Positions 1 through 56,354 of a stretch of DNA of 64,000 nucleotides are shown here, piece by piece. Made by a program: the position numbers and the translations under genes. Under the pieces are notes generated by a model, which had not been told where the DNA came from, ran no database searches, and was given only the letters and a program-made list of their open reading frames with translations. Every line of letters begins with the position of its first letter. The first letter of the stretch is position 1. Origin of the DNA: an uncultured Bacteroidales bacterium (GTDB lineage: Bacteria > Bacteroidota > Bacteroidia > Bacteroidales > VadinHA17); contig CAVPGA010000009.1 of the NCBI GenBank assembly GCA_963703935.1, positions 1,258,998 to 1,322,997 on the forward strand, given 5' to 3'.

Positions 1-330
1 AGGAAACTTATGTTCAGTTTTTTACTTTAAGAACTTACACAGAGTTCCACTGAGAAGTCGGCCCCTAAATCCCTGCCTACCGGCAGGCAGGCCCTGAAGG
101 GGACTTAAATTTTAGCCACCTTTAGGTCATAGCCGTCAACTTAAGGTGATGGATACAGGAAAATAGGGAGAGTGTTTAAGCCAAAACTGAATGTAAAGTA
201 CTGAATTTAAGTATTATAACTTTCCCCTCCTTAAAAAGGAGGGGAAATGTAAATTATTGAAAATCACTTGCATACAGTCCATTTCATAAGCTATCCTATT
301 TTTTAGGTTTGATGGAGACCAGGGGCGATT
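1..330. repeat. Mosaic of short hairpin-forming intergenic repeat modules (CACAGAG-type arm, CCCCTAAATCCC...GAAGGGGACTT module, CCTGCC-TACC-GGCAGG hairpin, CCCCTCC...GGAGGGG hairpin)
   Basis: The same word modules recur at 7172-7748, 8931-9190, 11950-12420, 20040-20470, 28240-28895 and 37680-37930. No ORF with coding character. Confidence 0.75.
133..230 (+). repeat. 98-nt repeat with an inverted second copy at 37817..37915
   Basis: Manual alignment of 133-230 with the reverse complement of 37817-37915 gives about 7 differences, including one 1-nt indel. Confidence 0.85.
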
Positions 331-365
331 TAACTTTGTGGAACTTCAGTGCATAAAGGAATCAA

Positions 366-7171: not shown

Positions 7172-7748
7172 GGACTTAGAATAGCCCCCTTTAGGGGACC
7201 GACGTTAAAAAATTGCCGGTGGGCAATTTTAGCGAAGGGGCCAGCCTGCAGGGTAGACCTGTGGTGGGGGTTGGGGGAAACTTAACAGAGTTCCACAGAG
7301 AAATCGTTTACTTTTCAATGGTAGAGGCCGGGCGTTAAATCACCAGCGATTTTGCCCCTAAATCCCCTGAAGGGGACTTAAAGAATAGCCCCCTTTAGGG
7401 GACCGAGCGTTAAAAAATTGCCCGGTGGGCAATTTTAGCGAAGGGGCCAGCCTGCAGGGTAGACCTGTGGTGGGGGTTGGGGGTAAACTTACACAGAGTT
7501 CAACAGAGAGATCGTTTACTTTTCAATGGTAGAGGCCGGGCGTTAAATCACCAGCGATTTTGCCCCTAAATCCCCTGAAGGGGACTTAAAGAATAGCCCC
7601 CTTTAGGGGACCGAGCGTTAAAAAATTGCCCGGTGGAGGGCCGAGCGTTAATAAAACCCCTGTGGGTGTTTTTAGCGAGGAGCCATTGCAGCGATGGTAG
7701 CGAAGGGGCCAGCCTGCAGGGTAGACCTGTGGTGGGGGTTGGGGGCAT
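7172..7748. repeat. Tandem array, about 2.8 copies of a ~205-nt composite unit made of hairpin modules
   Basis: The word GAATAGCCCCCTTTAGGGGACCG starts at 7179, 7383 and 7591. Each unit carries CCCC-CTTTA-GGGG, AATTGCCC-GGT-GGGCAATT and CCCC-TGAA-GGGG hairpins and a CACAGAG-type word. The third copy has an internal insertion and ends at 7745. Confidence 0.9.
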
Positions 7749-11949: not shown

Positions 11950-12420
11950 GGCCTCTCAGTATCCTGAATTTTCTCCTCCTTCAAAGGAGCTAAATCCATT
12001 AACCGGAAAGATCGCAAAGGAGTACAAAAAGATCGCAAGGAGCTAATTATTAATGTTTTAACTTTGCATGCTTTGCAACTTCTTTGCGTACTATTATATA
12101 ACTCTTATTATTTACTATCAGAAGGTAACAGTTTTTTTACCACAGAGTTAAGACGGAGTAAAGACGGAGTTGCACTGTTTTAAAACTCCGTGTTTTACTC
12201 TGTGAAACTCTGTGAACTCGTGGTAAAAGGATTTCAGGCAACTCTGTTCCTCCCCGCCTGTTCACCCCTAAATCCCCTTCTATGTGTACTTTTAAAAACC
12301 CCCTTTAGCGGGCAGGGAGTAAACCTATGGTTAAAACTATCGTTGCGCGAAAAAGGAGACTTAAAAGGAACACCCTCCAGAGATTACCAGCCCTTTTTGT
12401 AATAATCGGCCCAACTTATC
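11950..12420. repeat. Repeat mosaic: GCAAAG-type hairpin (12006..12105), CACAGAG/ACGGAGT-type hairpin (12139..12224), truncated CCCCTAAATCCC module
   Basis: 12006-12105 aligns in the same orientation with 28516-28625. 12139-12224 aligns with 28386-28471 in the opposite orientation. Confidence 0.85.
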
Positions 12421-16919: not shown

Positions 16920-17342
<423 letters not shown>

Positions 17343-19316: not shown

Positions 19317-19615
19317 ATCAGTTTTTTAAGGTTATTTATTGGCAAAGTTCAGCTATCAGAATATCAAAGTCTACCACTTTTGTATCATTTTCTGACAATC
19401 TGGTTACATTTTGAATGGGAAATTGGCCTTAAAGGGGAAATCCGGCGGACATATAAAGCTTGACAGCTCTGCAGGAAGAACTTTATAACTAGTCGTGCTT
19501 TGTCCTACTCAAACAGCATTAGACTATGTCGATGACGGAGTGAGGGCAACGAGTTTTTGTATTTCCCGCAGATACCGCAGATCGATATTTGCCCGTGAAT
19601 GAAGGTTGTAACGAT

Positions 19616-19996
19616 TTATCTGTTATTTTCAAATTCAATTAATTCCACAGGAGCTCCGTCGTGTTCTACCATTGCGACTCTGATCCCACTGCCCGGGGAA
19701 TTTGGTTCTGTCAATACCTTTAAGTTATGTGTTTTAATTTCATGATCTATGTCAGTTACTTCGAAAGCTATATGGGGAGTAGTGCGTATCAGTTTGCTGA
19801 TCGGGCTATCCTTTTCAAATCTCATCCATTCGATACCAAAGGGACTTGTACTGAAACCGGATACATAAAATCTGAATTGCGGCAGGTAAATTTCATCTGC
19901 CAGTTTCCTTCGGGTCGGGATCCCCAGGTGATGGTATTTCCATCCCCATTCAGCAATTGAGGCTGGCGGTTCATGATCCTGTCTGCGTTTTGTCAT
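19616..19996 (-). CDS. VOC/glyoxalase-like family protein
   Basis: 126 aa. YHHLGIPT and APVELIEF motifs fit the VOC fold. Moderate support. Confidence 0.55.
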   Translation of the reverse strand: MTKRRQDHEPPASIAEWGWKYHHLGIPTRRKLADEIYLPQFRFYVSGFSTSPFGIEWMRFEKDSPISKLIRTTPHIAFEVTDIDHEIKTHNLKVLTEPNSPGSGIRVAMVEHDGAPVELIEFENNR

Positions 19997-20039: not shown

Positions 20040-20470
20040 AACACTGCCCACCGGCTCCCTGGTAAAGTTACGTAAACCCTAAAACATAACCGCAAAGTTC
20101 GCAAAGGTTTCAATCCTGAGATCGCAAAGGGGGGGATAGGGGGGAGCTTGGTGTGCTATGGAAATGGCACGGATTACACTCCGCTTCGGTCGTGGTAAAT
20201 CCGCTAAAATTGCCACGGGAATTTTTTAACGCTCGGCCCCCTTAAGGGGATTTAGGGGCAACCTTGGGGGGAAATAAGAAGGAGGAGCTGTGCGGCCAGC
20301 AATGGTAAATTAAGAACTTACACTGAGTTCCACTGAAAAAGTCACAGAGTTCCACAGAGTTAATATGTGACCGTACTCAAAATCACTCTGTGTCCCGATA
20401 GCTATCGGGACTCTGTGAAACCTCTGTGGATCTCTGTGTAAGTTATTATTAAAAGTTTCTTCCAGGGAGT
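20040..20470. repeat. Repeat mosaic with a long CACAGAG-type hairpin (20315..20444) carrying a perfect 18-nt palindrome (20393..20410)
   Basis: The GCTAAAATTGCC...TTTTTTAACGCTCGG...GGGGATTTAGGGGC block is the reverse complement of modules in the 7.2-7.7 kb unit. The arms AACTTACACTGAGTTCCACTG...CACAGAGTTCCACAGAGTT and CACTCTGTG...CTCTGTGAAACCTCTGTGGATCTCTGTGTAAGTT are complementary. TCCCGATAGCTATCGGGA is self-complementary. Confidence 0.85.
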
Positions 20471-25108: not shown

Positions 25109-25185
25109 AATAATAAGTATTAATGATTTTTGGATATTTTGTGCTGCATAATAATTCTATATCATCGTAATCTGAAAATGCAATC

Positions 25186-25385
25186 AGCGGGATATTTTAT
25201 GTTTTCCCGCAGATCTCGCAGATCTTCGCAGATTTAATATGTCTTTTAATACGTCTTTCTATTTCCGGATTTCTTAGCGTCTTAGCGACTTTGTGGCATT
25301 CTTTTTTTGGCCACGAAGGCACTAAGGCGCAAAGTTCATCTGTGAAAATCTGCGAAATCAGCGGGAAATTTTTTGTTTTCCCGCT
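25186..25385. repeat. Nested hairpin element of the CGCAGAT type
   Basis: The outer arms TCCCGCAGATCTCGCAGATCTTCGCAGATTT and CATCTGTGAAAATCTGCGAAATCAGCGGGA are complementary. Each end carries AGCGGGA-N11/12-TCCCGC. The loop holds a second hairpin, CTTAGCGTCTTAGCGACTTTGTGGC / GCCACGAAGGCACTAAGGCGCAAAG. Confidence 0.85.
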
Positions 25386-25578
25386 GTTTAATAACAATAA
25401 GATTTTATCTATTGTTCACTTTAACAATAAAAATGCTGAAACAATATTCATGAGGAGGAGGAGACGTTTTGCCGTCCGTTCCGGTTATGATCCTGCCAGA
25501 AGAGCGGGGTCATTATGGTTACAATGAGATACAAAGAGGAATCGGTGTATCAAGTGCAATACACCACGTGGATTTGAA

Positions 25579-27162: not shown

Positions 27163-27263
27163 CCTTTGTGCCCCTTGGTGAGGACCTTTGTGTACTTTGT
27201 GGTATAAAAATAAATCCATTAACCACAAAGGATCGCAAAGTTCAACACAAAGATACACAAAGG
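27163..27263. repeat. CACAAAG-type hairpin element
   Basis: CCTTTGTG...CCTTTGTGTACTTTGTGGT - loop - ACCACAAAGGATCGCAAAGTTCAACACAAAGATACACAAAGG. It ends 6 nt before the nanA ATG. Confidence 0.85.
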
Positions 27264-27268
27264 GTTAA

Positions 27269-28216
27269 ATGGAAGTTAAAAACATCGTTATGTTCAGGAT
27301 ACAAAAATTTGAAGGTCTGGTTGCAGCACCCTTCACCCCGATGGATAAGGACTTACACCTTAATACCGACCTGATACCCAGGTATTATAAATTCCTCGAA
27401 AAGAACGGGATTGCAGGTGCTTTTATAAATGGAACCACAGGGGAGGGGGCTTCGTTGACCCAGAAAGAAAAACAGCTGCAGGCGGAGAAATGGGGTGAGT
27501 GTTACAGGTCGGGTGGTTCTGTCCGTATTATAAACCTGGTAGGGGGAACATGCTACAGTGAGTGCATTGAAAATGCTCTTTTCTCCTTTGAGGCAGGAAT
27601 TTCAGCAATTGCAGTTCTGGCACCCTATTATTTTAAACCTGTTGATGAAAGCCAGCTTGCTGATTTTTGTGCCAGAATAGGCGGATCGGTTCCCCTGATG
27701 CCGGTCTATTTCTATCATGTCCCGATACTTACAGGAGTCAATCTGTCAATGTCAGACTTCCTGGAAAAGATATCTTCAATGTTGCCAAATTTTGCGGGAA
27801 TCAAGTATACGCACGAAGACTTTATGGATTTTCAGTCATGTCTGAATTTCAGGGATGGAGCCTATGATCTGTTATGGGGTATGGACGAAAGCCTTCTTCC
27901 TGCCCTTGCATTGGGATGCAAAGGGGCTGTTGGGAGCACTTACAACTATGCTGCTCCTTTGTACCACACTCTGATTAAGGTCTTTAAGGAAGGAAACATC
28001 GGGGAAGCGCAGAGATTGCAGCAATTATCGATCAACATTATAAGACTTTTGAAGAAGTACGGCGGGTTGGCTGCCGGAAAGGCATTCATGAAATATGCCG
28101 GACTTGATTGCGGGGAATTCAGGTCACCTGTTAAAAACATGACTGCTAAAATGTTTGATGATTTTGTCAGGGATGTGGAAGCTCTTAAGCTGGGATCCCT
28201 GCTTTCTAAAATATAA
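27269..28216 (+). CDS. nanA: N-acetylneuraminate lyase / DHDPS-family aldolase
   Basis: FEGLVAAPFTPM, GAFINGTTGEGASLT, and the Schiff-base context FAGIKYT. An alternative start is at 27290. Confidence 0.75.
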   Translation: MEVKNIVMFRIQKFEGLVAAPFTPMDKDLHLNTDLIPRYYKFLEKNGIAGAFINGTTGEGASLTQKEKQLQAEKWGECYRSGGSVRIINLVGGTCYSECIENALFSFEAGISAIAVLAPYYFKPVDESQLADFCARIGGSVPLMPVYFYHVPILTGVNLSMSDFLEKISSMLPNFAGIKYTHEDFMDFQSCLNFRDGAYDLLWGMDESLLPALALGCKGAVGSTYNYAAPLYHTLIKVFKEGNIGEAQRLQQLSINIIRLLKKYGGLAAGKAFMKYAGLDCGEFRSPVKNMTAKMFDDFVRDVEALKLGSLLSKI

Positions 28217-28239: not shown

Positions 28240-28895
28240 ATCTTATCGGGACTCCGGATTTCACCGTCTGGCCAGGGACTGTTGAAAAAGTTAAAATCCT
28301 TTAACCGCAAAGTCCTTCACCAATGCAGATTAATAGGAACATCAAATTTGATAACTTCATAAAATGAGAATCCTTAAATCCTTTAACCACTGAGTTACAC
28401 AGAGTTTCACAGAGTAATACACGGAGTTTCAAAACAGTGTAACTCCGTTTTTACTCCATTAACTCCGTGGTTCAATAACTAATTATCGTCTTTTTGTATA
28501 TAATATGCGTAAAAGAGTAATATAGTAGAGCGCAAAGGATTTATGCAAAGATCGCAAAGTAGCTAATTATTAACGTTTTAGCTTTGCGTGCTTTGCATGT
28601 TTTTAGCGTGCTACTATATAACTATTTAACATAAATTGCCCCACCTGCTCACCCCTAAATCCCCTAAAGGGGACTTTTAAAAACCCAGGGGCGACGTTAA
28701 AAGCCCGTGGGCAATTAGGGAGGAGCCAGTTTGCAGGGGAGACTGTGGTGGGGGCAGGGGGTAAACCGACGGTTAAAACTCTTAACGATCTTAGACTTTA
28801 ATCCTTCCCCTAAAGTTATTCATTTGATGTTCCCATAATTCATGATGGGTGCCAAACTTTGCGGTTAAAAAAGGCTTTTTCAACAGCCTCAGACA
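28240..28895. repeat. Onion-like nested palindrome: outer arms 28278..28355 / 28815..28887 enclosing hairpins 28386..28471 and 28516..28625 and a CCCCTAAATCCC module block
   Basis: The reverse complement of 28815-28887 (GCTGTTGAAAAAGCC...TTAACCGCAAAGTTTGGCACC...GGGAACATCAAATGAATAAC) aligns with 28278-28355. The inner hairpins were verified arm against arm. Confidence 0.85.
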
Positions 28896-29080: not shown

Positions 29081-30444
29081 TTGGGTAGCTTCTTGCATAT
29101 TAAGATTATTAGATTTCTGATAAGTAGTATTTTATTATTATCATTCTTCATTCCTGTCTTCTCTGTTATAAATCAGGCTTCAGATTCGGTTAACAAGAGG
29201 GTGACCAGACGTGCCATCAGGGCATCAGACCAGGTCAGTTATAAATCAACAGGCCGATACCGCTAAACAGCTGGCAGCCGATACCGTAATAGCCGATACA
29301 CTCAAAAATCAGACTGCCGATTCTATATTAAACCAGCCGGGCGCAACACTTAAAACTCAGACGGTCGATTCAGTTCTGATTGAGATACCCGACTCGGTTT
29401 TGTCCCTGCCACGAACCTTTAGTGCTGAGGAGCTTACAAGAGGCGAAAGGCTTTTTTACGGCCTCGCTTATCCTGAAGACAGGGGGGTTAGGTGTGTCAG
29501 CTGCCATAATACCCGCCAGTTGGATACTCTGAACTGGAATCCTGATGCGTTTGAGATTTCAGTGAAATACCTGAACAAAAACGCGGCCGAACTGAAAAAA
29601 GTCCTTCTAAGACCTGCCGGTAAGAAGATGACTGAAGTCCACAATGGATTCCAGCTCACAAATGAAGATATCCTTCTGATCAAAGGGTATATGGACAGGT
29701 TTGTTGATATCGGGATTAAACAAAAAAAGCCTGTTGTAACGAATCTCCTGTTACTTATAATATCTTCCGTCCTGCTTTTTATCTCCCTGACCGATGTTGT
29801 CATTAAAAAGTTATTCAGGAACAAGAATATCAACAGGATAATAATTCCAGTCACATCGGTTGTTATTACGTGGATCCTCGCTGTCAATGCAATTGCATTC
29901 GGACGGGCAACAAATTATTCTCCGGATCAGCCAATAAAGTTTTCTCATGCTGTTCATGCCGGGCAAAACCAGACAGATTGTAATTTATTGCCATTATTCT
30001 GCGAGATCCAGCAAGACTTCGGGAATTCCACCCGGAAATGTCTGTCTGAATTGTCACTTCCTTGTAAAAAGCGGAACCCGGTCAGGTGTGACCGAGATCA
30101 ATAAACTGACAGGTGCTTTTGACAGCGGGAAGGCAGTGGAATGGGTCAGGATCTACAGGTTTCCGGACTTTGTTTTCTTTAGCCATGCACAACATGTAAC
30201 TGCAGGGGGAATTGCCTGTGAAGCATGTCACGGTGATGTAAAGACTATGGACAGGCTCCGGCAGGTGCCCAACCTTGGAATGGGCTGGTGTCTGAAATGT
30301 CATGATTCAAGAAAGGTTAACCTCGGTAACGAATACTATAAAACTTATTTTTCAAGCTTTTACGACTCTTTACAGGCAGGTAAAATCGACAGTGTGACCG
30401 TGTCTGTCACAGGAGGCAGGGATTGCGGAAATTGTCATTATTAA
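29081..30444 (+). pseudogene. actA: ACIII multihaem cytochrome c subunit ActA, about two frame breaks
   Basis: Six CxxCH motifs (CVSCH, C-N/YCH split by the break, CLNCH, CEACH, CLKCH, CGNCH) and a central TM helix. An extra T in AATTTATTG near 29985 separates HAGQNQTDCN from YCHYSARSSKTSGIPPGNVCLNCH. The signal-peptide ORF (29081) and the body (29211) are in different frames. Confidence 0.8.
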
Positions 30445-30466
30445 ATAAACGGCACAACCTTAAGAA

Positions 30467-33445
30467 ATGAAAAAGTACAGGAAAGAAATTGAATCGAAAC
30501 AGAATGAACAGGGAAAGAATAAGCCTGTTGAAACCGTTTATGATGGAAATCCTGTACTATCTGTCCTTGAATGGAAATGGGATTGAGCTGAATTCTTCAA
30601 GGAGGGACTTTTTGAAATTATGCGGATTCAGTTTTGCTCTTGGTGCATTGTCTTCCTGCAAATCAAAGATCAGCAAAGCAATCCCCTATGTTATTGCTCC
30701 AAGGGAAATGACTCCGGGCGAAGCTCTTTGGTATGCATCAAGCTATGTTAATGGCAGTGATTATTGCAGCATTATTGTCAAAACCAGGGATGGCAGGCCG
30801 ATAAAAATAGAGGGGAATCCTTGTCAGGAGTTACCAGCGGTGGTACGAATGCCAGGATTCAGGCCTCGGTTCTGGACCTTTATGATATGACCAGATTTAA
30901 AGGACCACTTAAAAATGGTGCACCGGTTGACTGGCTGCAAATTGATGAAGAAATTATCGGCAGACTTAACAAAATAGTTGCTGATAAAAGATCAATTGTG
31001 CTCCTTACACCATCAGTTTTCAGTCCTTCGACTGAAGCTGTAATTTCAGGGTTTCTTAAAAAATTCCCGGGTTCAGAATGGGTCAAGTATGATGCAATTT
31101 CATATTCTGCAATGCTTGAAGCAAATAAAAGAAGCTTTGGCAGACAGGTAATTCCTGACTACCGTTTTGACAAGGCAGATGTTATCGTCAGTTTCGGAGC
31201 TGATTTTCTTGGTACCTGGCTTTCTCCGATTGAGTATACAAAACAGTTCAGTTCAAGAAGAGATCCTGAACAGAATATGAACTTCCTTGTTCAGATTGAA
31301 TCGAATTGAGCCTTACGGGATGTAATGCCGATAAAAGAATTCAGATCAAGCCTTCACAGGAATATGCAATTCTTCTTAATATTTACAGGGAAATCTGATG
31401 CACTCTTTAAAAGACCAGGAATATCAGCGTACCTGCTTCTCCGGTTGATGTGAGCGGAATTAGCAGAAAAACTTATTTCATCACAGGGAAGATCACTTGT
31501 TAATTTCTGGTTCAAATGTAAAGGAAGATCCAGCTTCTTGTAAACGAGATCAACAGATTTCTTGGAAATATTGGCAATACAATATTGTTCGATTCATACC
31601 TGAGGACCCATGAAGCAACAGATTCGGATATGGAAATGCTTGTCAGAAAGATGAAGGAGGGCAATGTAAATGCTCTTATGATATGGAATGTGAATCCTGC
31701 TTATACCTGGTACAACAGGGATGCATTTTCAAAGGGACTCAAAAAGGTTGGACTTACGTTTCTCTTTCCGGTTCTCCTGATGAAACAAGTGAACTTGTTC
31801 AGTATATATGTCCTGATAACCATTATCTGGAAGCTGGAATGATGCTGAGCCCAAAAAGGATTTTTACAGTCTGATGCAACCGGTTATCAGTCCGATATTT
31901 GATACACGTCAGATGGCTGATACATTATTGAAATGGTCAGGTTCGTCCAGATGATTTCTATGATTTTATAAGGTCTTACTGGACTGAACATATGATGCCG
32001 CGGCAAACGGAATTTCATGATCCTGTTGCTTTTTTTGACAACACAGTTGCAAAAAGGGATCTTTGAACCTGGCAGTCAAAGTCGAAAATTAACTGACTCC
32101 CAGGTGGCTCGTTTGCCATCCAGACCATTTATATCCGGAAAAAGTCAATGAATGCCGGCGAAGCATCTTTTGAAATTATCCTGTATGAACCAGTTGCAAT
32201 TGGTGAAGGCAGGCAGTCCAATAATCCATGGCTCCAGGAATTGCCTGATCCGGTGACCAGGATCTGCTGGGACAATTATGCATCGATCTCTGTGTTACAG
32301 GCAAAGGAAATTGGACCTGACAGACGGTGATCTTATTGATCTGGGAGGAGTTGATACTGCCGTCTCATCTCAGCCCGGACAGGCATATGGAACCATTGGA
32401 TTGCACTTGGATATGGCCGCCGGATTGTGGTAAAGTTGGTGAAGGAGTAGGAGACGATGTATGGCAGCTGCTTTCAATCAGAAAATGGTAATATCATGTA
32501 TACCAGGAATCTGGATCAAATTCTGAAAACAGGGAGCGGATACCTCTTTGCCCAGACCCAGACCCATCAACGATGGAAGGAAGAGCCATTTGTCCGTGAA
32601 GCAGGATTGAAGGAATTCAGGAAGAATCCGTCAGCCGGCAATGAATTGCATCGAATATTTTACATCCAAGGCAAAAAGTCTTTATAAGGAAAGGAAATAT
32701 CCTCATCATCACTGGGGTATGGCAATTGATCTGAGCAAATGTACCGGATGCGGAAACTGTGTTATTGCCTGTCAGGCAGAGAATAATGTTCCGGTTGTGG
32801 GAAAGGAGGAAGTACACCGGGTTCACGAAATGCACTGGATCAGGATAGACAGGTATTACACCGGTGATGATAGATCCGGAAGTTGTTTTTCAGCCTGTTC
32901 TTTGTCAGCATTGCCAGAATGCCCCCTGTGAAAATGTCTGTCCGGTTGCAGCCACAAACCATAGTTCTGAAGGTTTGAATCAGATGATATACAACCGCTG
33001 CTTCGGAACACGGTACTGTAATAATAACTGTCCTTACAAAGTCAGAAGATTTAACTGGTTCAATTATACCGAAGCAGGTACACTTTCGCGGCAATCTGAG
33101 GGATAAGGCAGGAATGACAGGTGATCTCCGACGGATGGTGCTTAATCCTGATGTTACTGTCCGGGGACAGGGAGTCATTGAAAAATGTTCTTTCTGTGTT
33201 CAGCGTATCCAGGCAGCAAAACTGAAGGCAAAATCTGAAAACAGGGCATTGTTCAAAAATGAAATTCAGACAGCCTGTTCGCAGAGTTGTCCGGCAAATG
33301 CAATTATTTTTGGGGATCTGAATGATGAAAGATAGTGAAATGAACAGGATGATCAGCAGGCGGACGAAGTTATAATCTTCTTGAGGAGTTGTTTACCATG
33401 CCATCGGTTAATTATCTGACCAAAATAAGAAACAGAATTTCGTAA
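30467..33445 (+). pseudogene. actB: ACIII molybdopterin-like / FeS subunit ActB, heavily fragmented (a dozen or more frame breaks)
   Basis: Tat motif SRRDFLKLCGF. IKIEGNP..SGVTSGGTNARIQASVLDLYD. FeS motifs [61 protein letters not shown] and CSQSCPANAIIFGDLND. The colinear pieces switch among all three frames between 30.5 and 33.4 kb. Confidence 0.85.
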
Positions 33446-33463
33446 ATAAAAATAATATCAGAT

Positions 33464-34840
33464 ATGTTTCAATCTCCACTGCGGACACCTTTAATTGAAG
33501 GTAAAAAAACTTACCAGGATATCAGCGACCAGATCCTTAATCCGATGATGAACAAGCCGATAAATTCTGGTATCTGGGGATGACCTTGTCCTTCGGTGCC
33601 ATGCTATTCGGACTTTTAATGATTTTCTGGACAGTCTGGCAGGGAATTGGAACCTGGGGAGAAAACAGAACAGTCGGATGGGCTTTTGAAATAACCACAT
33701 TTGTCTGGTGGATCGGGATAGGACATGCCGGTACATTTATTTCTGCAATTCTTCTGCTTTTCAGGCAGAAATGGAGAAACAGCATTAACCGTTCTGCCGA
33801 GGCAATGACAATATTTGCCGTTATCTGTGCAGCCCTTTTCCCTCTTATTCATCTGGGGCGGCCACTGCTTACCTTTTTCATATTCCCTTATCCCAACACC
33901 AGAGGTCTCTGGGTTAACTTCAATTCTCCGCTGGTATGGGATGTATTTGCAATTTCGACATATTTTACTATTTCACTGGTATTCTGGTATGTAGGATTGA
34001 TTCCTGATATTGGTACCCTGCGTGACAAACTCAGGAAGGGAATCAAAAAGAGCATTTATAATTTTCTGAGCTTCAGCTGGAAGGGATCAGCAAGAGACTG
34101 GCACCGGCATGAAATCACTTCAATAATGCTGGCAGCAATTGCTACTCCGCTTGTTCTGTCTGTTCACAGCATTGTAAGTATGGACTTTGCTGATTCAATA
34201 CTTCCGGGATGGCACACGACGATATTTCCTCCCTACTTTGTTGCAGGAGCAATTTTCTCGGGATTTGCAATGGTTCTGACCCTGTTGATAATTGCAAGAA
34301 AAACCATGGGACTCGAGGATTTTATTACGATAGAGCATGTGGAAAATATGAATAAGATCCTCATTGCTACCGGTTCGATTGTTGCCCTGGCTTACTATAA
34401 CTGAAATATTCATGTCGTGGTATTCCGGCGTCGAGTATGAGCAGGCGAATTTAATTAACCGGATGACCGGCCCATACTGGTGGGCATACTGGATAATGAT
34501 AGGCTGCAATGTTGTTTCTGCCCAGCTGCTGTGGATCAAGAAGCTCAGGACAAACCTCCTGTTTACCTTCTTCCTGTCAATTGTGATTAATATCGGAATG
34601 TGGTTCGAACGATTCGTTATAATTGTTACTTCTCTGCACAGGGATTTTCTGACTTCAAGCTGGACTATGTACAAACCTACCATAGTTGAGTACGGGCTTA
34701 TAATCGGGACGCTGGGGATCTTCTTTACAGCATTCCTGCTCTTCATAAGGGTATTTCCGGTCATCTCAATATTCGAGGTGAAATCAATCCTGAAAGTAGA
34801 AACTGCCGGTCAGGCCAAAAGAAATAATCATCATGAATAA
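33464..34840 (+). pseudogene. actC: ACIII NrfD/PsrC-like membrane subunit ActC, two frame breaks
   Basis: MFQSPLRTPLIEGKKTYQDISDQI, then [15 protein letters not shown]...[17 protein letters not shown], then a third frame from about 34390. Polytopic throughout. Confidence 0.8.
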
Positions 34841-35342
34841 TCCAGATTATATATCAGTTTATTTCGATGATGAGGATCCTATGCGCCAGGCTGTAATGAA
34901 ACTGCTCGAAAGCAACGAGAAGATCATTGATGTGATGACGCCCTTTCCCGTCCATGGAATTGACAGGCTCCTGTCAATCAGGAGATCACGAATCCCTGTG
35001 GGAGGATTTATTTTTGGTTTTCTGGGTGCAGTTTCTGCCTTTGGTTTCATGGCCTGGGTTTTTACTGTCAGTTACCCGCTGATCATCGGAGGTAAACCTT
35101 TTTTTGCAGCACCCTCCTTTATTCCAATCACTTTCGAGATGACTGTCCTTTTTGCCGGTTTGTCGATGGCCGCAGCAATGCTGATAAGATCGAAGCTTAA
35201 ACCGGACATAAGGTTTAAGCCCGCAGATGAAAAGATTACCGATAATATGTTTGTGATACTTGTTGACACCGGGGACGGGAAAACAACTCCTGAGAAAATC
35301 AGGTCCATCTTATCGGGTATTAAAATTTTTGAAATGAAATAA
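34833..35342 (+). CDS. actD: ACIII subunit ActD (DUF3341)
   Basis: 169 aa, intact. VYFDDEDPMRQAVMKL...TPFPVHGID plus two TM helices. Overlaps the actC end by 8 nt. Confidence 0.75.
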   Translation: MNNPDYISVYFDDEDPMRQAVMKLLESNEKIIDVMTPFPVHGIDRLLSIRRSRIPVGGFIFGFLGAVSAFGFMAWVFTVSYPLIIGGKPFFAAPSFIPITFEMTVLFAGLSMAAAMLIRSKLKPDIRFKPADEKITDNMFVILVDTGDGKTTPEKIRSILSGIKIFEMK

Positions 35343-35357
35343 TCTGAGTCTGAAAAT

Positions 35358-36519
35358 ATGGATGAGCAATTCATTTTCAGAAAGGGGTACCGGAATATTC
35401 TGGTTGTCGTGATGACCGGGGCTCTGCTTGTTGCCCTGGTGAGCATACTTGTTTCCCGGACTGATGCTTCAAGGATCTGGGCAAATGTTCTCCTTAATAA
35501 TCAGTTTTTCCTGGGTATTTCCCTGGGTGCTGCTTTCTTCATTGCAGTTCACAGGATTTCACTGTCCGGATGGCATACAGTCCTGCAGCGGGTGCCCGAG
35601 GCGATGACGGCTTTTCTTCCTGTTGCTTTTTTCCTGATGCTTCTCATTTATTTTGGCATGAATAACATTTACCACTGGTCTCATTACGAGGGTTATGATC
35701 CGGTACTGGAAGGAAAAAAAGCCTGGCTTAACATTCCGTTCTTCTTTATCAGGATGGTATTTTATTTTTCCGGATGGATTGCTCTTACATGGTTGATGAG
35801 AAAGAATTCAAATGCGCTTATGACATCTTCTGATATAAAATATCACAACAGGAGAAAATTATTCGGTGGACTATTCCTGGTTTTTTTCGGGATAACAGTT
35901 TCAACAAGCAGCTGGGACTGGATAATGTCCGTTGATGCTGAATGGTACAGTACAATTTTCGGATGGTATGTCTTTATCGGCATGTTTGTCACTTCACTTG
36001 CTTTATTATCCTTATTTCTGGCTTCTCAGACGCCAGGGTTACCTTACCCTTTTAAGGGATGACCATGTTCATGACCTGGCAATACTTCTCTTTGCCTTCA
36101 GCATATTCTGGACCTATCAGTGGTTCTGCCAGTACCTGCTGATCTGGTATGGACATCTTCCTGAGGAAACATCTTACTTTATCCCAAGGCTGAATGAGTT
36201 CAGAGTGATTTTCTTCCTAAACCTGGGGATTAATTTTATCGTGCCGTTCTTTGGTCTTATCCGGTCCCGGTCAAAGAAAAACCTTGACTGGATAGCTCTT
36301 ATGGCAGCCATAACCTTTATCGGGCACTGGATCGATTACTGGCTTATGATTATGCCGGGATCCGCCGGTGAAAATGCCGGGATCGGATTACTCGAAATCT
36401 CTGCTACCGTACTTTATACAGGTTTGTTCATTTTTGTGGTTTTCAGATCTCTGGCACATGGACCGGTTATTGTGAAAAATGATCCTTTTCTTGAAGAGAG
36501 TCTGAATTATGAATCATGA
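35358..36519 (+). pseudogene. actF: ACIII membrane subunit ActF (Bacteroidota quinol:cytochrome c oxidoreductase type), one frame break near 36050
   Basis: RIWANVLLNNQFFLGISLGAAFFIAVHRI...YHWSH...AWLNIPFFFIRMVFYF continues in ORF 35932-36519 after a shift. Confidence 0.7.
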
Positions 36520-37157
36520 TAATATTAAAAACATTAAAGATCTGAGGATGTTTAGATCAAGACTTATATCAACCCGACTTCCTGTATTTCTTGTTTTGAT
36601 GCCTTTACTATTCTCATGTGACAGGACAAGAACAATGCGTGGATATGACTTCATCCCGGATATGACCTATTCGCGTGCTTACGAGACTTTCTCGCAAAAT
36701 CCCAATTTTTCTGACAGCTCTGACGATGAGGGTTCCGGAAGTAAATACTGTCCCCAGGGGTTACCTTCCTTTCAGATATACAATTGATCCGGAAGAACGG
36801 GTCAGGGCAGGGAGCGAACTTCAGAATCCATTCCTCCCGACGGATGAAGTAGTTGCGAGGGGTCAGTTCATTTTCACCACATTCTGCATTGTCTGCCATG
36901 GGATCAAAGGCGTCGGTGACGGGCATCTTTATATAAGCGGGCTCTATCCGCTGAAACCACGGACGCTTACAGGAGCTGTTGCAAGAAAGCTTAAAGACGG
37001 CGAGATTTTTCACACCGAAACCCTGGGATTCGGATCAATGGGAGGTCACGGTTCGCAGATAAAACCTGACGACAGGTGGAAGTTAGTAAAATACATCAGG
37101 AAACTCCAGGCGAATGCCATTATAACAGGCGATACAGCAGCAATCCTAAAACCCTGA
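36509..37157 (+). pseudogene. actE: ACIII monohaem cytochrome c lipoprotein ActE, one frame break near 36715
   Basis: Lipobox LLFSC. YDFIPDMTYSRAYETFSQNPNFSD, then in another frame MRVPEVNTVPRGYLPFRY...FCIVCHG. Confidence 0.75.
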
Positions 37158-39801: not shown

Positions 39802-41407
39802 TTATAATCGTATGGTCCTTTGGTAATTACAGGTTGTCTCTTCAAAATTTTCAACCGGAGGAGGAGAAGGAATTGTCCATTCCAGGGTTTTGCCTCCCCA
39901 GGGATTTGCAGGAGCCTTTATTCCCTTTTTCAATGAAGCGAACAGATTAATGATATAATCATTGCCCCGGAGTAAAGAACCCATGATCCCATTGTTGAAA
40001 TAATATTCCCGGCATGAAATATTTCATCATAATCAAAATACCTTCTGGGCATACCTTTTACTCCAAGGTAAAACATCGGACCATAAAGTGTTATAAATCC
40101 TACAAAAAACAGGAGCAAACCAATATTTGCCCATCTGGTATCATACATTTTCCCTGTTATTTTCGGATACCAGTAATGCATTGCTCCAAAAAAAGCAAAA
40201 CCTGTTCCTCCGAATACAATAAAATGAAAATGAGCAACAACAAAATGTGTATTATGCAAGATGAACATTGGTTGCAAGTGAACCAAGAATAAGTCCGGAA
40301 AATCCACCGATCATGAATACAAAAATAAATGCCATTGCCCAGTAAAAAGGAGTTTGCAGATCAATGGAACCCTTATGCATTGTGGATATCCAGTTAAATA
40401 CTTTTATGGCACTCGGAATTGCTACAAGAAATGTCAGAAGTGAAAAAGTATAAAGAGCTGTTCCGCTCATTCCTGAAGTGAACATATGATGTCCCCAGAC
40501 AAAATAACCTACAAAGGCAATTGCCATGGCTGAAGCAACCATGAATTTGTATCCGAATATTGTTTTATGGGAGAAAGTTGATATAATCTCTGAAATTGCT
40601 CCCATTGCAGGTAGTATCATAATATATACTGCCGGATGACTGTAGGTCCAGAACAGATGCTGATAAAGAAGAGGATCACCTCCAAGTGTCGGATCGAAAA
40701 ATCCGATATGCAGTATTCTTTCAGCAGCAACCATGAGCAGGGTTATTCCGATAATCGGAGTGGCAAGCAGCTGTACCCATCCTGTGGCATAAAGTGTCCA
40801 TGGGAATAATGGCATTTTCAGCCAGGTCATTCCCGGAGCCCTCATCCTGTGCATTGTCACCAGAAAATTCAGCCCGGTCAGGATTGATGAAAATCCGAGA
40901 ACAAATGCTCCAAATACTGCAGGAAGCATATTCCCGGCTGTTCTGAAACTGTAAGGTGCATAAAATGTCCAGCCTGTATCAGGAGGTCCCTGACCTGTAA
41001 ACTGTGATATAACTACAAGTGTAACTCCGGTAACATAAAAATACCAGGAAAGCAGGTTTAGTCTTGGAAATGCAACATCTTTTGCTCCGATCATGATAGG
41101 AAGGAGGAAATTACCAAATACTGCAGGCAAGCCCGGAATGACAACAGCAAATATCATTATTATTCCGTGGAGGGTAAAAAATGCATTATAGGTCTTGTGC
41201 ATCCACAATGGTTTTACCCGGGGCAATAAGCTCAAACTTCATTAGCAAACCGATTGTAGCCCCAATGGCAAAAACTGTAAGGATTGAAAACAGGTAAAGC
41301 ATGCCGATCCTTTTATGATCGGTGGAAAATATCCAGGCAAATATGCCTTTATATTTTCCTTTATGATTAAGATAACTGGGTTCATCGAGGTTGGTTTGTG
41401 TACTCAT
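39798..41407 (-). pseudogene. ctaD: Cytochrome c oxidase subunit I, four frame breaks
   Basis: Colinear pieces are ORFs 41186-41407, 40252-41235, 39930-40307 and 39802-39984, plus a last piece ending [14 protein letters not shown] that overlaps the ctaE ATG. At about 40285 an extra G sits between CTT and CAT (LATNVHL / [14 protein letters not shown]). Confidence 0.85.
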
Positions 41408-48545: not shown

Positions 48546-48607
48546 GTCTTGCAGTCTTGCAGTCATGCAGTCTTGCAGTCTTGCAGTCTTGCAGTCTTGC
48601 AGTCTTG
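48546..48607. repeat. Octanucleotide tandem tract, seven full GCAGTCTT units (one GCAGTCAT variant)
   Basis: Read directly, 48551-48606 plus partial flanks. Lies 64-125 nt upstream of the Rieske ATG and 9 nt downstream of the preceding stop. Confidence 0.95.
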
Positions 48608-51213: not shown

Positions 51214-51707
51214 GTTGTTTTTTCAGGTTTAAGGAAATACTCAATTTTACCCCTTTCACGGACGATCCCTTTCCAGGTATCTGTTTTAAAGTAAAGACCC
51301 ACAATACCACTTTTGGGAAGGAAATCACATCCGTCCTTTGACAGCCTGTCGGGTATTTCAGTGAAAGAAGGATTATGACCGAAGAAAATTATGGTGTCAA
51401 TATCGTCTGTGACCTTTTCAATTATTTCAGAAAATGAATTAAGGGTTGCCCTGTGATAAAGGAGATTTTTGAGAATGATAGCTTCAGGACTCATTCCGAA
51501 TACCCTGGCGAAGACAAGAGCTGTTTCAAGCGCTCTGAAAGCCGGGCTGCTAATAAATATTCCGGGATCTTTCTCTTTGTTTTTCAGGATGGCAGCCATC
51601 TGTTCGGAGATATTTTTCCCTTTGGTTGTAAGGGATCTTTCAAAATCAGGGATCATTGAAGTAGGTTCTTCTGCTCTTCCGTGCCGGACAAAAATCAGCT
51701 TTTTCAT
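51210..51707 (-). CDS. sixA: Histidine phosphatase family protein (SixA-like)
   Basis: LIFVRHGRAE. 165 aa. The stop overlaps the ppk1 ATG (ATGA). Confidence 0.7.
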   Translation of the reverse strand: MKKLIFVRHGRAEEPTSMIPDFERSLTTKGKNISEQMAAILKNKEKDPGIFISSPAFRALETALVFARVFGMSPEAIILKNLLYHRATLNSFSEIIEKVTDDIDTIIFFGHNPSFTEIPDRLSKDGCDFLPKSGIVGLYFKTDTWKGIVRERGKIEYFLKPEKTT

Positions 51708-51755
51708 CTGAGTCGAAATATTAAAATTGTTTCAACGATCTCAACATAACTTGAG

Positions 51756-51763
51756 CAAATTTA
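51756..51763 (-). promoter_or_regulatory. Candidate -7 promoter box TAAATTTG
   Basis: Exact TAnnTTTG match on the minus strand, about 49 nt upstream of ATG 51707. Confidence 0.4.
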
Positions 51764-51873
51764 GGGTTTTAAAGGAGATTTTGTTCAATTGATCAATTGA
51801 ATTTAGTTGCCTTTTAAATGTTGACATTTATTATGTAATTTTATGAGATCTGTCACAAGCTCGAATATTTGCT

Positions 51874-52755
51874 ATGCTTCCGGATTACGTAAAACTGAAA
51901 GACATCAAGCCTGCCCTGAGCGGATACATCAGGGAAGCTCATTCCATGCTTCCCACCGATGCAATACCTGATGAAAAGGTGGTTCACGACATCCGTGTCC
52001 TGATGAAAAAGTCAAGGGCTGTAATGAAACTTATCAAAGGCCAGATTGACGAACCCACATTCAACAGAGAATACAATACCTTCAGGGAAACCGGCAGGAA
52101 GATGCAGGAATGGCGCGAGACATCAGTGCACCGTAAGATCCTTAAAGATCTTCGCAAGAAGCACATCGACATTTTCAACAGCCTCCGGGATCATGAAAAA
52201 GTAAATTTTTTGCTCCGAAAACCTGTGGCCACTGAACTATCCCCGGATGCAAGGGAAAACCTCGGGGATATTGCCGGACTGTTAAATAAATCCGGATACC
52301 GTTTAAGGTTTCAACCGATGAATAACTTTGATCCGCATCTGCTACTTAAACAACTGGAAATAACTTATATTGATGTATCAGACAATTACCTGACAGCAAG
52401 GAATACTTTGAAGTCATCAGATCTGCACGAGTTCCGCAAAAAGACCAAGGACTTTCTTTACCAGCTTTATTTTTTCAGATCATTAAAACCAAAGGTAGTC
52501 AGGGACCTTGAGAACAGGCTCGACACGCTGGCTCAGAATCTGGGCAGGTATAATGATCTTGCAGTACTTTTGGAAACCCTTGACTACAGATACAAAGGAC
52601 CGGGAGAAGCCAATCCTCAGCTTGATGAGCTTGCGGTAATTATACATAACAGCCAGGACAGGTATCTTTCAAAAGTATGGCCCGAAGCCTATTCTATGTT
52701 CTGCCCAGGTAAGAAACTGACGAATCTCCTGGGATATAAAATACTGGTGATCTGA
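51874..52755 (+). CDS. CHAD domain protein
   Basis: VHDIRVLMKKSRAVMKL and LHEFRKKTKDFLYQLYFF helical repeats are typical of CHAD. Confidence 0.7.
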   Translation: MLPDYVKLKDIKPALSGYIREAHSMLPTDAIPDEKVVHDIRVLMKKSRAVMKLIKGQIDEPTFNREYNTFRETGRKMQEWRETSVHRKILKDLRKKHIDIFNSLRDHEKVNFLLRKPVATELSPDARENLGDIAGLLNKSGYRLRFQPMNNFDPHLLLKQLEITYIDVSDNYLTARNTLKSSDLHEFRKKTKDFLYQLYFFRSLKPKVVRDLENRLDTLAQNLGRYNDLAVLLETLDYRYKGPGEANPQLDELAVIIHNSQDRYLSKVWPEAYSMFCPGKKLTNLLGYKILVI

Positions 52756-52786
52756 CCGATTGATCTTAAATACGGATGAAATAACT

Positions 52787-56146: not shown

Positions 56147-56170
56147 GTGCAATAATCAGATATATGCTTT

Positions 56171-56223
56171 GATCTGCGGGATAAGCGGGAATTCTTTTGT
56201 TTCCCGCAGATTCCGCAGATTTA
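56171..56223. repeat. CGCAGAT-type hairpin element
   Basis: GATCTGCGGGATAAGCGGGA - ATTCTTTTGTT - TCCCGCAGATTCCGCAGATT. Confidence 0.85.
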
Positions 56224-56354
56224 CCCATCCGTTTTAAGGTATTATTATCCCCTCACTTTATTTGTCCTCTTTCACAATTGTTTCTGCGATTATAAAGTAA
56301 ATTTATCCTGGTAGTCCCGTCAAAGGTATTGCTTCTTACCCCTAAGTGAAATTT

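What the first reader, a model, noticed from the sequence alone, without database searches (positions are those of the whole stretch)
25186..25385. Hairpin families with unrelated sequence share one architecture
At least five word families occur in the window:
- CGCAGAT (25186-25385, 56171-56223, 19560-19590)
- CACAAAG (27163-27263)
- CACAGAG (20315-20444, 12139-12224, 28386-28471)
- GCAAAG (12006-12105, 28516-28625)
- TTAGCG (inner hairpin at 25275-25345)

The words differ, but every element has the same build. Each arm is 2-3 imperfect iterations of a 7-10-nt word, the two arms are complementary, the loop is AT-rich, and elements are found inside each other's loops. The 25.2-kb copy is a hairpin within a hairpin.

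Conserved structure with divergent sequence suggests a structure-guided propagation or maintenance mechanism, comparable in logic to REP/REPIN elements and their RAYT (Y1 transposase) partners. No such enzyme is encoded in this window.
Basis: inference. Interest (0 to 1): 0.7.

Follow-up and report, generated by a model that had tools for sequence, protein, structure and literature searches.

The report
Word-repeat hairpins linked to GxxExxY nuclease
The hairpins are real copies of a widespread family of small palindromic repeat elements whose full-length relatives in other bacteria carry a small, uncharacterised nuclease gene (GxxExxY) between the same kind of arms, so they resemble REP or MITE elements but with a different and undescribed partner enzyme.

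Summary
The window (Bacteroidota, Prolixibacteraceae-like) carries about 12 intergenic elements built from 7-nt words repeated every 9-10 nt in inverted arrays. Most fold far better than shuffles, and some are nested.

The families are not unrelated:
- All words fit C-R-C-N-R-A-G/T.
- Termini are ACCAC..GTGGT, ACCGC.. or TCCCGC..GCGGGA.
- Some "families" are copies of one element (E3 = reverse complement of E10, 93%).

The elements differ between syntenic relatives. One site upstream of the DHDPS gene holds a CACAAAG element here and a CACAGAG element in a MAG with 80% protein identity.

The key result concerns GxxExxY genes (TIGR04256/PF13366, Cas4/lambda-exonuclease-like fold, D..ExK intact). 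About 18 of 20 bacterial copies examined, from Bacteroidota and Alphaproteobacteria, sit exactly between inverted arrays of such words (CGCWGAT, CACAAAG, CACGAAG, CACCAAG, CGCAAAAG, ACGGAAT and others). A relative syntenic with window 49-53 kb has a hairpin-GxxExxY-hairpin insert where the window has an empty spacer.

The arms show no compensatory covariation (permutation p = 0.66). The words are conserved, not the pairing.

Best reading: MITE-like derivatives of GxxExxY-encoding palindromic elements. That the nuclease mobilises them is inferred. It is not RAYT/HUH. No enzyme is encoded in the window.

The parts
25182..25389 (.). E7, the finding. It is a composite CGCWGAT element. The canonical unit TTCCCGCAGAT..ATCAGCGGGAAA spans about 25203-25368. 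It is flanked by terminal fragments of neighbouring units (AATCAGCGGGA at 25182-25192, TTTCCCGCTG at 25377-25386), which make two small end hairpins.
   Evidence: the consensus of the same element in metagenomes is
25203..25233 (+). Left arm of E7: TTCCCGCAGAT CT CGCAGAT CTT CGCAGAT (3 words, period 9-10).
25268..25335 (.). Inner hairpin nested in the E7 loop: CTTAGCG TCTTAGCG ACTTTGTGGC / GCCACGAAG GCACTAAG GCGCAAAG. It belongs to the CAC/CGC-NAAG word class with GTGGC/GCCAC inner ends.
   Evidence: z = -5.6
25338..25368 (+). Right arm of E7: ATCTGTG AAA ATCTGCG AA ATCAGCGGGAA.
56168..56224 (.). E12, a CGCAGAT hairpin of the head-to-head type: ATCTGCGGGA TAAGCGGGA / TCCCGCAGAT TCCGCAGAT.
   Evidence: z = -7.5
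19563..19582 (+). E4, a solo CGCAGAT arm (TTCCCGCAGATACCGCAGAT) with no inverted partner.
20088..20130 (+). E5, a solo array of 3 CGCAAAG words.
20311..20448 (.). E6, a CACTGAG/CACAGAG element with termini AAGAACTTACAC..GTGTAAGTT. The palindrome TCCCGATAGCTATCGGGA is nested in its loop.
   Evidence: z = -8.9; the same termini occur in L001
29..54 (+). E1 left arm (AAGAACTTACACAGAGTTCCACTGAG). Other repeat elements are nested between the two arms.
332..352 (+). E1 right arm (AACTTTGTGGAACTTCAGTGC).
11990..12107 (.). E2, a CGCAAAG element. It is a weak hairpin (z = -1.1) and 79% identical to E11.
12137..12234 (.). E3, a CACAGAG/GACGGAG element with termini ACCAC..GTGGT followed by AAAAGGATTT.
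   Evidence: (z = -5.2)
27163..27263 (.). E8, a CACAAAG element with 4 words per arm and inner ends GTGGTA..AACCAC around the loop AAAAATAAATCCATT. It ends 5 nt before the DHDPS start codon.
   Evidence: z = -5.6; the same loop and arms occur at another locus in L001
28293..28315 (+). E9, a solo terminus: AAATCCTTTAACCGCAAAG.
28374..28475 (.). E10, the reverse-complement copy of E3 (93% identity over 96 nt).
28502..28637 (.). E11, a CGCAAAG element with outer arms GTAATATAGTAG..CTACTATATAAC.
   Evidence: z = -5.2
51707..51874 (.). Empty site. This is the divergent spacer between the His-phosphatase/PPK genes and the CHAD gene. In the syntenic relative L275 it holds hairpin + GxxExxY gene + hairpin.

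Best explanation
The window's hairpins are ORF-less (miniature) members of a large superfamily of small palindromic elements.

**Anatomy**
- Each arm is an array of 2-4 copies of a 7-nt word of the class C-R-C-N-R-A-G/T, spaced about one helical turn apart (9-10 nt). The two arrays are inverted.
- Full-length members carry one gene between the arms, a roughly 125-aa GxxExxY protein (PD-(D/E)XK nuclease with a Cas4/lambda-exonuclease-like fold).
- Full-length members sit in very short spacers inside host operons, co-oriented with the neighbouring genes.

**What is shown**
- The architecture.
- The word class and shared termini.
- Dispersal in both orientations, and nesting.
- Presence, absence and replacement at orthologous sites.
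- The tight physical link between GxxExxY genes and word arrays across phyla.
- Conservation of words without compensatory pairing.

**What is inferred**
- The word arrays are binding sites for GxxExxY oligomers, which synapse the two arms and cut at the termini.
- This moves or copies the element, by transposition or by homing-type break repair.
- ORF-less copies are mobilised in trans, as MITEs and REPINs are.
- The hairpin potential is largely a consequence of the inverted arrangement, not the selected feature.
For: **1. Real, repeated, nested elements**

**2. Copies at different loci and in both orientations**
- E3 is 93% identical to the reverse complement of E10. E2 is 79% identical to E11.
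- The E8-type loop and arms also occur at another locus in L001.

**3. Variable at orthologous sites**
- Upstream of DHDPS the window has a CACAAAG element. Syntenic L001 has a CACAGAG element with nested repeats.
- About 770 bp of elements downstream of DHDPS are absent from L001.

**4. The CGCWGAT element is very widespread**
- In contigs with GC < 0.52, 57 of 118 hits have a type-I inverted partner.

**5. GxxExxY genes lie in the loop or between the arms**
- Found through the DNA pattern: L143, L156, L231, L239.
- Chosen through the protein alone: L269, L272, L275, L276; L278-L283; L312-L315.
- Their words include CGCWGAT, CACAAAG, CACGAAG, CACCAAG, CGCAAAAG/CGCTAAAG, CGCAGAA and ACGGAAT. 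These are the same classes as in the window.

**6. Filled versus empty site in a relative**
- L275 is syntenic with window 49-53 kb (66-75% nt identity). It has hairpin-GxxExxY-hairpin where the window has a 167-nt spacer.

**7. Cassette replacement at one site**
- L280 and L282 have flanks 93% and 84% identical, but proteins only 72% identical and entirely different words.

**8. The nuclease looks active**
- D69, E79 and K81 are invariant.
- The AF2 model has pLDDT 89.6. The best structural matches are Cas4 SSO0001 and lambda exonuclease.

**9. No other gene family recurs next to CGCAGAT arrays**.

**10. Words are conserved, not pairing**.
Against: - No GxxExxY gene lies in the 64-kb window. 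None was shown in this genome, only in a relative.
- No target-site duplication, excision footprint or polymorphism between near-identical genomes was found, so mobility is inferred from comparisons at 66-93% identity.
- Protein-word specificity is loose. Proteins 68-73% identical have different words (L279-L282), while a 54%-identical pair shares CGCWGAT (L143/L231). Recognition of words by the protein is therefore unproven, and GxxExxY could be cargo.
- Giant-virus GxxExxY copies (L284, L286-L288) have no arrays.
- A CGCAGAT hairpin persists at the same site in several Mariniphaga MAGs, which is compatible with a host function.
- GC-rich phage-like contigs carry direct 4-word arrays just upstream of start codons, with no inverted arm. 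The model does not explain these.
- Sampling of GxxExxY loci was small (about 20) and partly found through the word pattern.
Confidence: 0.6

Rival explanations
1. RNA-level elements. The inverted arrays are selected because they fold in the operon transcript. They would act as terminators, as mRNA-stabilising or RNase III processing stems (as in 23S rRNA intervening sequences), or as insulators that let an inserted gene sit inside an operon. Dispersal would be secondary.
For: - All copies are intergenic and most are probably transcribed, since they lie inside operons.
- GxxExxY cassettes are co-oriented with their flanking genes.
- Folding is strong.
- A hairpin is kept at one operon position in Mariniphaga MAGs.
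- In many copies the variable positions are A-rich on the same strand in both arms, a strand asymmetry.
Against: - There are no compensatory changes.
- The type-I hairpin is preceded by a T-run and followed by an A-run (A at +1 in 51 of 57), so it is not an intrinsic terminator on either strand.
- Solo arms and both orientations occur.
- Elements differ between syntenic relatives.
- Rfam has no match, even at E <= 1.
- No RNA data exist for this organism.
Confidence: 0.2
2. Classical REP/REPIN elements, mobilised by a RAYT (Y1 HUH transposase) or an IS200/IS605 TnpA encoded elsewhere in the genome. GxxExxY would be only a frequent passenger.
For: - The elements are short, extragenic, palindromic, clustered and alternating in orientation, like BIMEs.
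- Bacteroidetes do have RAYT subclasses 2.4 and 2.6 with 'atypical' associated structures (PMC6006769).
Against: - The termini lack the GTAG/GTGG or CGTC foot (direct reading).
- The REPs listed for subclass 2.6 are GCTRG + 8-10-bp simple hairpins without word arrays.
- No HUH gene occurs in the window.
- Apart from GxxExxY, found separately, no gene family recurs beside about 100 CGCAGAT arrays.
- The gene found between the arms is always GxxExxY.
Confidence: 0.07
3. In-situ products of replication slippage and template switching in AT-rich spacers. Tandem words would arise by slippage and be copied to the other arm by intrastrand template switching, with no dedicated enzyme and no transposition.
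For: - The words are tandem and imperfect.
- Hairpins are nested within hairpins.
- Word identity changes while the architecture stays the same at one site.
- Some copies are perfect palindromes (L159, L244, L252).
Against: - The same 19-30-nt sequence (TCCCGCAGATnnCGCAGAT..) recurs in more than 100 unrelated contigs with GC 0.32-0.6.
- 93%-identical copies occur at distant loci in opposite orientation.
- Termini are conserved.
- The link to one gene family is specific.
- Most copies are not perfect palindromes.
Confidence: 0.05
4. Arrays of binding sites for a host DNA-binding protein (nucleoid-associated or regulatory). They would be kept for chromosome organisation or gene control and copied around by recombination.
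For: - Words are conserved rather than pairing.
- The spacing is about one helical turn.
- Direct arrays sit just upstream of start codons in phage-like contigs.
Against: - Many different words occur within one genome.
- Elements are not conserved between syntenic relatives.
- No consistent position relative to promoters was seen.
Confidence: 0.08

Closest known systems
REP/BIME/REPIN elements with their RAYT (TnpA-REP) genes (REPtrons) of Proteobacteria
   Same: Short extragenic imperfect palindromes in many copies. They cluster in alternating orientation with characteristic linkers. Non-autonomous copies are tied to a single small nuclease gene that is itself flanked by the repeats. They are mostly lineage-specific.
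   Different: The partner is a PD-(D/E)XK GxxExxY protein, not a Y1 HUH enzyme. There is no GTAG/CGTC foot. The arms are tandem arrays of 7-nt words, not one stem. The gene sits inside the palindrome and inside host operons. There are many word variants.
MITEs (miniature inverted-repeat transposable elements)
   Same: ORF-less, 60-200 nt, with terminal inverted repeats, intergenic and nested. Full-length relatives with a gene between the same ends exist.
   Different: No DDE transposase or parent IS is known and no target-site duplication was seen. The inverted repeats are internally repetitive, resembling the subterminal binding-site arrays of eukaryotic hAT or CACTA elements (own knowledge).
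Intervening sequences (IVS) of bacterial 23S rRNA genes, some carrying a small ORF (own knowledge; not tested here)
   Same: A small insert bounded by inverted repeats that form a long stem in the host transcript, sometimes with a roughly 120-aa ORF in the loop. The insert is tolerated inside an essential transcription unit.
   Different: IVS lie in rRNA helices. Their classical ORF is the four-helix-bundle S23 family. Word-array arms have not been described for them. No rRNA gene is present in this window.
Integron gene cassettes with attC sites
   Same: Promoterless single small genes are inserted co-directionally. The associated imperfect palindromes have a conserved architecture while their sequence varies.
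   Different: attC is one site at the 3' end of a cassette, with R/L boxes (GTTRRRY), recombined by IntI at attI in arrays. Here the arms bracket the gene, the sites are scattered within ordinary operons, and no integrase is nearby.
Free-standing homing endonuclease genes of phages
   Same: A small nuclease gene is wedged between conserved genes, and different alleles occupy the same intergenic site in related genomes (L280-L282).
   Different: Homing endonuclease genes have no inverted word arrays and no abundant ORF-less derivatives.

Membership tests
REP/REPIN-RAYT system | Conserved GT[AG]G (or CGTC) tetranucleotide at the foot of the hairpin | tested here: not met
   Termini read ACCAC, ACCGC, TCCCGC or AACTTACAC. 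None starts with GTAG, GTGG or CGTC.
REP/REPIN-RAYT system | Copies flank a Y1 HUH (RAYT) gene | tested here: not met
   No Y1_Tnp/HUH hit occurs among the window ORFs. The only gene found between the arms, or recurring beside them, in about 190 fetched loci is GxxExxY. The whole genome was not available.
REP/REPIN-RAYT system | Short extragenic palindromes in many copies, often in inverted pairs or clusters | tested here: met
   About 12 elements lie in 64 kb, all intergenic, clustered at 12.0-12.2, 19.5-20.4 and 28.3-28.6 kb.
MITE | Terminal inverted repeats bounding a short non-coding element, with a coding relative that shares the ends | tested here: met
   Inverted arrays with conserved termini are present. 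GxxExxY-bearing relatives share the same words and termini.
MITE | Target-site duplication and a cognate (usually DDE) transposase | tested here: inconclusive
   No duplication is visible at L269, L276, L280-L282 or at the window/L001 sites. The compared sequences are too diverged for exact boundaries. No DDE transposase was seen.
Intrinsic (Rho-independent) terminator | GC-rich hairpin followed directly by a U-tract | tested here: not met
   In 57 type-I CGCWGAT hairpins the 3' flank is A-rich (A at +1 in 51, +2 in 39, +3 in 40) and the 5' flank is T-rich. The consensus scan of the window found no excess of terminators (10 vs 8.6 expected).
Structured RNA family (Rfam) or structure-selected hairpin | Match to a curated covariance model, or compensatory base changes | tested here: not met
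   No Rfam hit other than tRNA-Pro at the gathering threshold, and none at E <= 1 in 19.4-28.8 kb. Complementarity at variable positions is 2.08/5 between an element's own arms and 2.15/5 between arms of unrelated elements, p = 0.66.
Integron attC site | R''/L''-L'/R' boxes with GTTRRRY, one per cassette, in arrays next to intI/attI | tested here: not met
   The motif GGTTAAWGGATTT does not fit GTTRRRY. The elements bracket genes or stand alone among housekeeping genes. No integrase is present in the window.
GxxExxY protein family (TIGR04256 / PF13366 PDDEXK_3), for the linked gene in relatives | HMM score above the curated cut-off and an intact PD-(D/E)XK catalytic motif | tested here: met
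   The L143 protein scores 144 bits against a cut-off of 35. PF13366 is recorded on all hits. D69, E79 and K81 are invariant. The fold matches Cas4 and lambda exonuclease. No such gene is in the window.

The most novel reading that the evidence does not exclude
GxxExxY PD-(D/E)XK nucleases are the mobilising enzymes of a very large, so far unrecognised class of bacterial mobile elements: a single small gene between inverted arrays of heptamer words. Their ORF-less derivatives are the common 'word hairpins' of Bacteroidota, Alphaproteobacteria and some phage genomes. This would be a third enzyme solution, after DDE and HUH, for MITE/REP-like intergenic repeats. It could also explain what this orphan protein family, with many thousands of members, does.
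Probability: 0.4. Interest if true: 0.85.

Novelty: new variant of a known kind. Interest (0 to 1): 0.72.

Why it matters
- GxxExxY/PDDEXK_3 is a very large orphan family. More than 6,700 and about 8,000 90%-identity clusters were found in two capped searches. PMC3424549 lists its function as unknown.
- Intergenic 'word hairpins' are common in Bacteroidota genomes, but I found no description of them in the searched literature.
- Linking the two gives a testable function for the protein. It also points to a possible new mechanism for spreading small palindromic repeats.
- The link may help explain assembly breaks, because many GxxExxY genes sit on contigs of 0.5-2 kb.
- It matters for annotation. 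These hairpins should not be called terminators or riboswitch-like RNAs.
- Because the cassettes insert inside operons, next to stop and start codons, they may also affect operon expression.

Tried and rejected
- **Rfam.** Searches at the gathering threshold and at E <= 1 returned only tRNA-Pro.
- **Exact-protein look-ups.** Two window proteins are not on record, so the genome itself could not be extended.
- **Sequencing runs.** Only two soil metagenomes hold 5-6% of the words, and there is no RNA. Transcript ends could not be checked.
- **Promoter and terminator scan.** Counts were at shuffle level.
- **REP lists for Bacteroidetes RAYT subclass 2.6.** They do not resemble these words.
- **Literature.** Searches for the word sequences, GxxExxY, PF13366 and IVS proteins found nothing on this association.
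- **Single-sequence scan of viral contigs for GxxExxY.** It found only the query contig. An alignment query was needed.
- **Neighbour-gene clustering around CGCAGAT arrays.** No recurrent family appeared, and no transposase.
- **Solved structures.** The PDB sequence search found nothing.
- **PADLOC and PHROGs.** Only weak Cas4-like hits, so GxxExxY is not a known defence component.
- **Window ORF 19616-19996.** It lies between two solo arms but is not GxxExxY-like.
- **Integron attC, cyanobacterial STRR/HIP1 and CRISPR.** I considered these and dropped them. There is no GCGATCGC, no integrase or cassette array, and no spacer structure.

Full report
**1. What the window is**

GC content is about 41%. 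The genes are housekeeping or polysaccharide-use genes. One protein has a type IX secretion CHU_C domain. The DHDPS-family gene at 27269-28216 has its best relative (80% identity) in an uncultured Bacteroidales MAG (L001). The next relatives, at about 60%, are Mariniphaga, Draconibacterium and Maribellus. The window therefore comes from a Prolixibacteraceae-like Bacteroidota genome. The genome itself is not in the look-up collections. Only two soil metagenome runs hold 5-6% of its words.

**2.

At 25182-25389 three CGCAGAT words (period 9-10) face ATCTGTG/ATCTGCG/ATCAGCG.
- The region folds at -87 kcal/mol, z = -8.2.
- Its loop holds a second hairpin at 25268-25335, z = -5.6.
- Seven further elements fold with z from -3.9 to -8.9. 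One, at 11990-12107, does not (z = -1.1).
- Tandem same-word pairs are 2-3 times more frequent than in shuffled sequence.
- Word-hairpins found by a strict detector number 4, against 0 in ten shuffles.
- All elements are intergenic.
- Two listed copies are single arms (19563-19582 and 20088-20130).

**3. The families are related**
- Every word fits C-R-C-N-R-A-G/T: CGCAGAT, CACAAAG, CACAGAG, CGCAAAG, CACGGAG and CACTGAG. The 'TTAGCG' hairpin reads CACGAAG/CACTAAG/CGCAAAG on its other arm.
- Termini recur: ACCAC..GTGGT, ACCGC.., TCCCGC..GCGGGA.
- A flank or loop motif, AAATCCWTTAACC, adjoins several elements.
- E3 (12137-12234) is 93% identical to the reverse complement of E10 (28374-28475), motif included. 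E2 and E11 are 79% identical.
- The clusters alternate arm orientation with two kinds of linker, much like E. coli BIMEs (own knowledge).

**4. They vary between relatives**

L001 is syntenic with window 21.3-38.7 kb.
- Immediately upstream of the DHDPS start codon the window has the CACAAAG element E8. At the same place L001 has a CACAGAG-family element (AACTTACACAGAG..CTCTGTGTAAGTT) with other repeats nested in it.
- Downstream of DHDPS the window has about 770 bp of elements that L001 lacks.
- In contrast, a CGCAGAT hairpin sits at a conserved operon position in several Mariniphaga MAGs.
- Flavobacterium loci carry analogous elements with CACATAG, CACGAAT and ATCTGCG words.

**5. The CGCWGAT element is very widespread**

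- In contigs with GC < 0.52, 57 of 118 hits have an inverted partner.
- The unit is TtTTCCCGCWGAT nn CGCWGAT nnn CGCWGA - loop - TCWGCG nnn ATCWGCG nn ATCWGCGGGAAA, with a median length of 76 nt.
- A T-run precedes the hairpin and an A-run follows it. This is the wrong way round for an intrinsic terminator on either strand.
- Many hits in GC-rich contigs are coding chance matches.
- One group of GC-rich phage-like contigs carries direct 4-word arrays just upstream of start codons.

**6. The link to a gene**

In L143 a 127-aa gene lies between CGCWGAT arms. It is a GxxExxY protein (TIGR04256, 144 bits against a cut-off of 35). Three more pattern-derived loci show the same arrangement: L156, L231 and L239.

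I then chose GxxExxY genes by protein alone.
- Four close homologues have CGCWGA-word arms directly at both ends. One is in Emticicia aquatilis, wedged between a MoxR-type AAA gene and its VWA partner.
- Distant homologues in the viral collection have other words:
  - L278: CACAAAG/CACGAAG
  - L279: CACGAA
  - L280: ACGGAAT
  - L281: CGCAGAA
  - L282: GAAACGAAT
  - L283: CGCAAAAG/CGCTAAAG
- Four Alphaproteobacteria-type homologues have CACCAAG, CACGAAG or CACAAAG arrays with ACCAC..GTGGT ends.

In total about 18 of 20 bacterial copies are bracketed by arrays. Four giant-virus or other copies are not. A general search for ORFs tightly enclosed by inverted word arrays returned essentially only GxxExxY. 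No other gene family recurs beside CGCAGAT arrays. The cassettes are co-oriented with their neighbours and sit a few nucleotides from the neighbours' stop and start codons.

**7. Link to this lineage**

L275 is syntenic with window 49150-53236 (DsrE, CHAD, His-phosphatase, PPK; 66-75% nt identity). It carries hairpin-GxxExxY-hairpin in the spacer that is empty (167 nt) in the window.

L280 and L282 have flanks 93% and 84% identical, yet cassettes with 72%-identical proteins and unrelated words. This indicates cassette replacement at one site rather than slow divergence in place.

**8. What is conserved**

I compared 26 distinct CGCWGAT hairpins in strict register.
- The arms of one element match at 2.08 of 5 spacer positions, against 2.15 for arms of unrelated elements (permutation p = 0.66).
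- The centre of the word (A or T) is not complementary either.
- Many copies carry A at all variable positions of both arms on one strand. A minority are perfect palindromes.

So the word sequence and its inverted, helically phased arrangement are conserved. Base pairing is not.

**9. The protein**
- D69, E79, K81 and the G..E..Y motif are invariant.
- The AlphaFold model is confident (pLDDT 89.6).
- Its best structural matches are Cas4 SSO0001, lambda exonuclease and LHK-Exo.
- It has no solved homologue by sequence and is not a PADLOC defence component.
- The 2012 PD-(D/E)XK survey lists its function as unknown (PMC3424549).
- I found no paper describing the association with word hairpins.

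**10. Interpretation**

Shown:
- A superfamily of palindromic word-array elements exists.
- Its gene-bearing members encode GxxExxY.
- The window holds ORF-less and fragmentary members of several word variants, nested and clustered.

Inferred: GxxExxY binds the arrays and cuts at the ends to move or copy the element, acting in trans on ORF-less copies.

Weak points:
- No GxxExxY gene in the window.
- No target duplication or recent polymorphism.
- Loose protein-word correspondence.
- Long-lived copies in Mariniphaga.
- The unexplained direct arrays in phage-like contigs.

The main rival is an RNA-level role of the stems (processing or insulation, as in rRNA intervening sequences). That role could coexist with mobility.

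**11. Verdict**

The REP/RAYT analogy is right in logic but wrong in enzyme and in the 'structure-guided' claim. This is a new variant of the REP/MITE kind, with a candidate partner from a different nuclease superfamily. Interest is 0.72.

Noticed in passing
window 7178-7636: A 208-bp unit repeated 2.2 times in tandem (97% identity). It contains GCCCCCTTTAGGGGAC-type small palindromes and ACAGAGTTCCACAGAG words. A third partial copy of one segment lies at 7706-7727.
   Followed up: no
window 16920-17342: tRNA-Pro(TGG) at 16920-16995 is followed by a 174-bp tandem repeat (2.1 copies, 95%) that starts inside the tRNA 3' end. This could be a duplicated integration site or a remnant of an integrated element.
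   Followed up: no
window 48546-48607: An octamer microsatellite (GTCTTGCA) x 7.8 lies between the Rieske-domain gene and the PEMT-like methyltransferase gene. It is a possible slipped-strand switch.
   Followed up: no
window 29211-37157 and 39930-41235: The alternative complex III operon and COX1 are split into overlapping ORFs in different frames. Comparison with L001 also shows frame changes. These are either long-read indel errors or pseudogenes.
   Followed up: partly
window 60-110, 12255-12310, 20230-20262, 28645-28690; L001 9930-10030: A second repeat family, (C)ACCCCTAAATCCCC..GGGGA, is built around small G/C palindromes. It is often nested inside or next to the word hairpins and is also present in L001.
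   Followed up: partly
window 20393-20410; L074 12330-12345 and 16160-16178: The palindrome TCCCGATAGCTATCGGGA in the loop of E6 recurs as ..ATAGCTATCGGGA.. next to word arrays in a Flavobacterium locus. It is a small insert shared across orders.
   Followed up: no
window 25233-25258; L001 7470-7535: The TTTAATATGTCT words in the E7 loop match a perfect palindrome, AATATGTCTTATAAGACATATT, that is repeated in L001. This is a further small repeat family.
   Followed up: no
L081, L103, L109, L118, L140, L146 (IMG/VR contigs 3300026159_000618, 3300010355_001692, 3300025871_000023, 3300026161_000635): GC-rich phage-like contigs carry 4-10 direct arrays of four CGCAGAT words, all on one strand. Each ends ..ATCTGCGGGAAATAAAATG at a start codon and has no inverted arm. 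They look like a repeated regulatory or leader element.
   Followed up: partly
L231 7483-8335: An NAD-dependent epimerase ORF reads through CGCAGAT-type word arrays (translated ..NADSADGTDNADL.. and ..ADNADGADNADN..). The words appear to be inserted within a coding region without breaking the frame.
   Followed up: no
L192 503-1648: A distant GxxExxY domain is joined in one ORF to KdsB (CMP-KDO synthetase) through translated AGAACCACGATT repeats. This may be a read-through artefact or a real fusion.
   Followed up: no
(protein tables): A large share of GxxExxY proteins sit on contigs of only 0.5-2 kb. This is what one expects if the flanking repeats break short-read assemblies.
   Followed up: no
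L001 6690-7300 and 7560-8170: A segment of about 600 bp is duplicated in tandem between the glyoxalase and DAGK orthologues. It has GACCCCCGG..CCGGGGGTT hairpins and is absent from the window.
   Followed up: no
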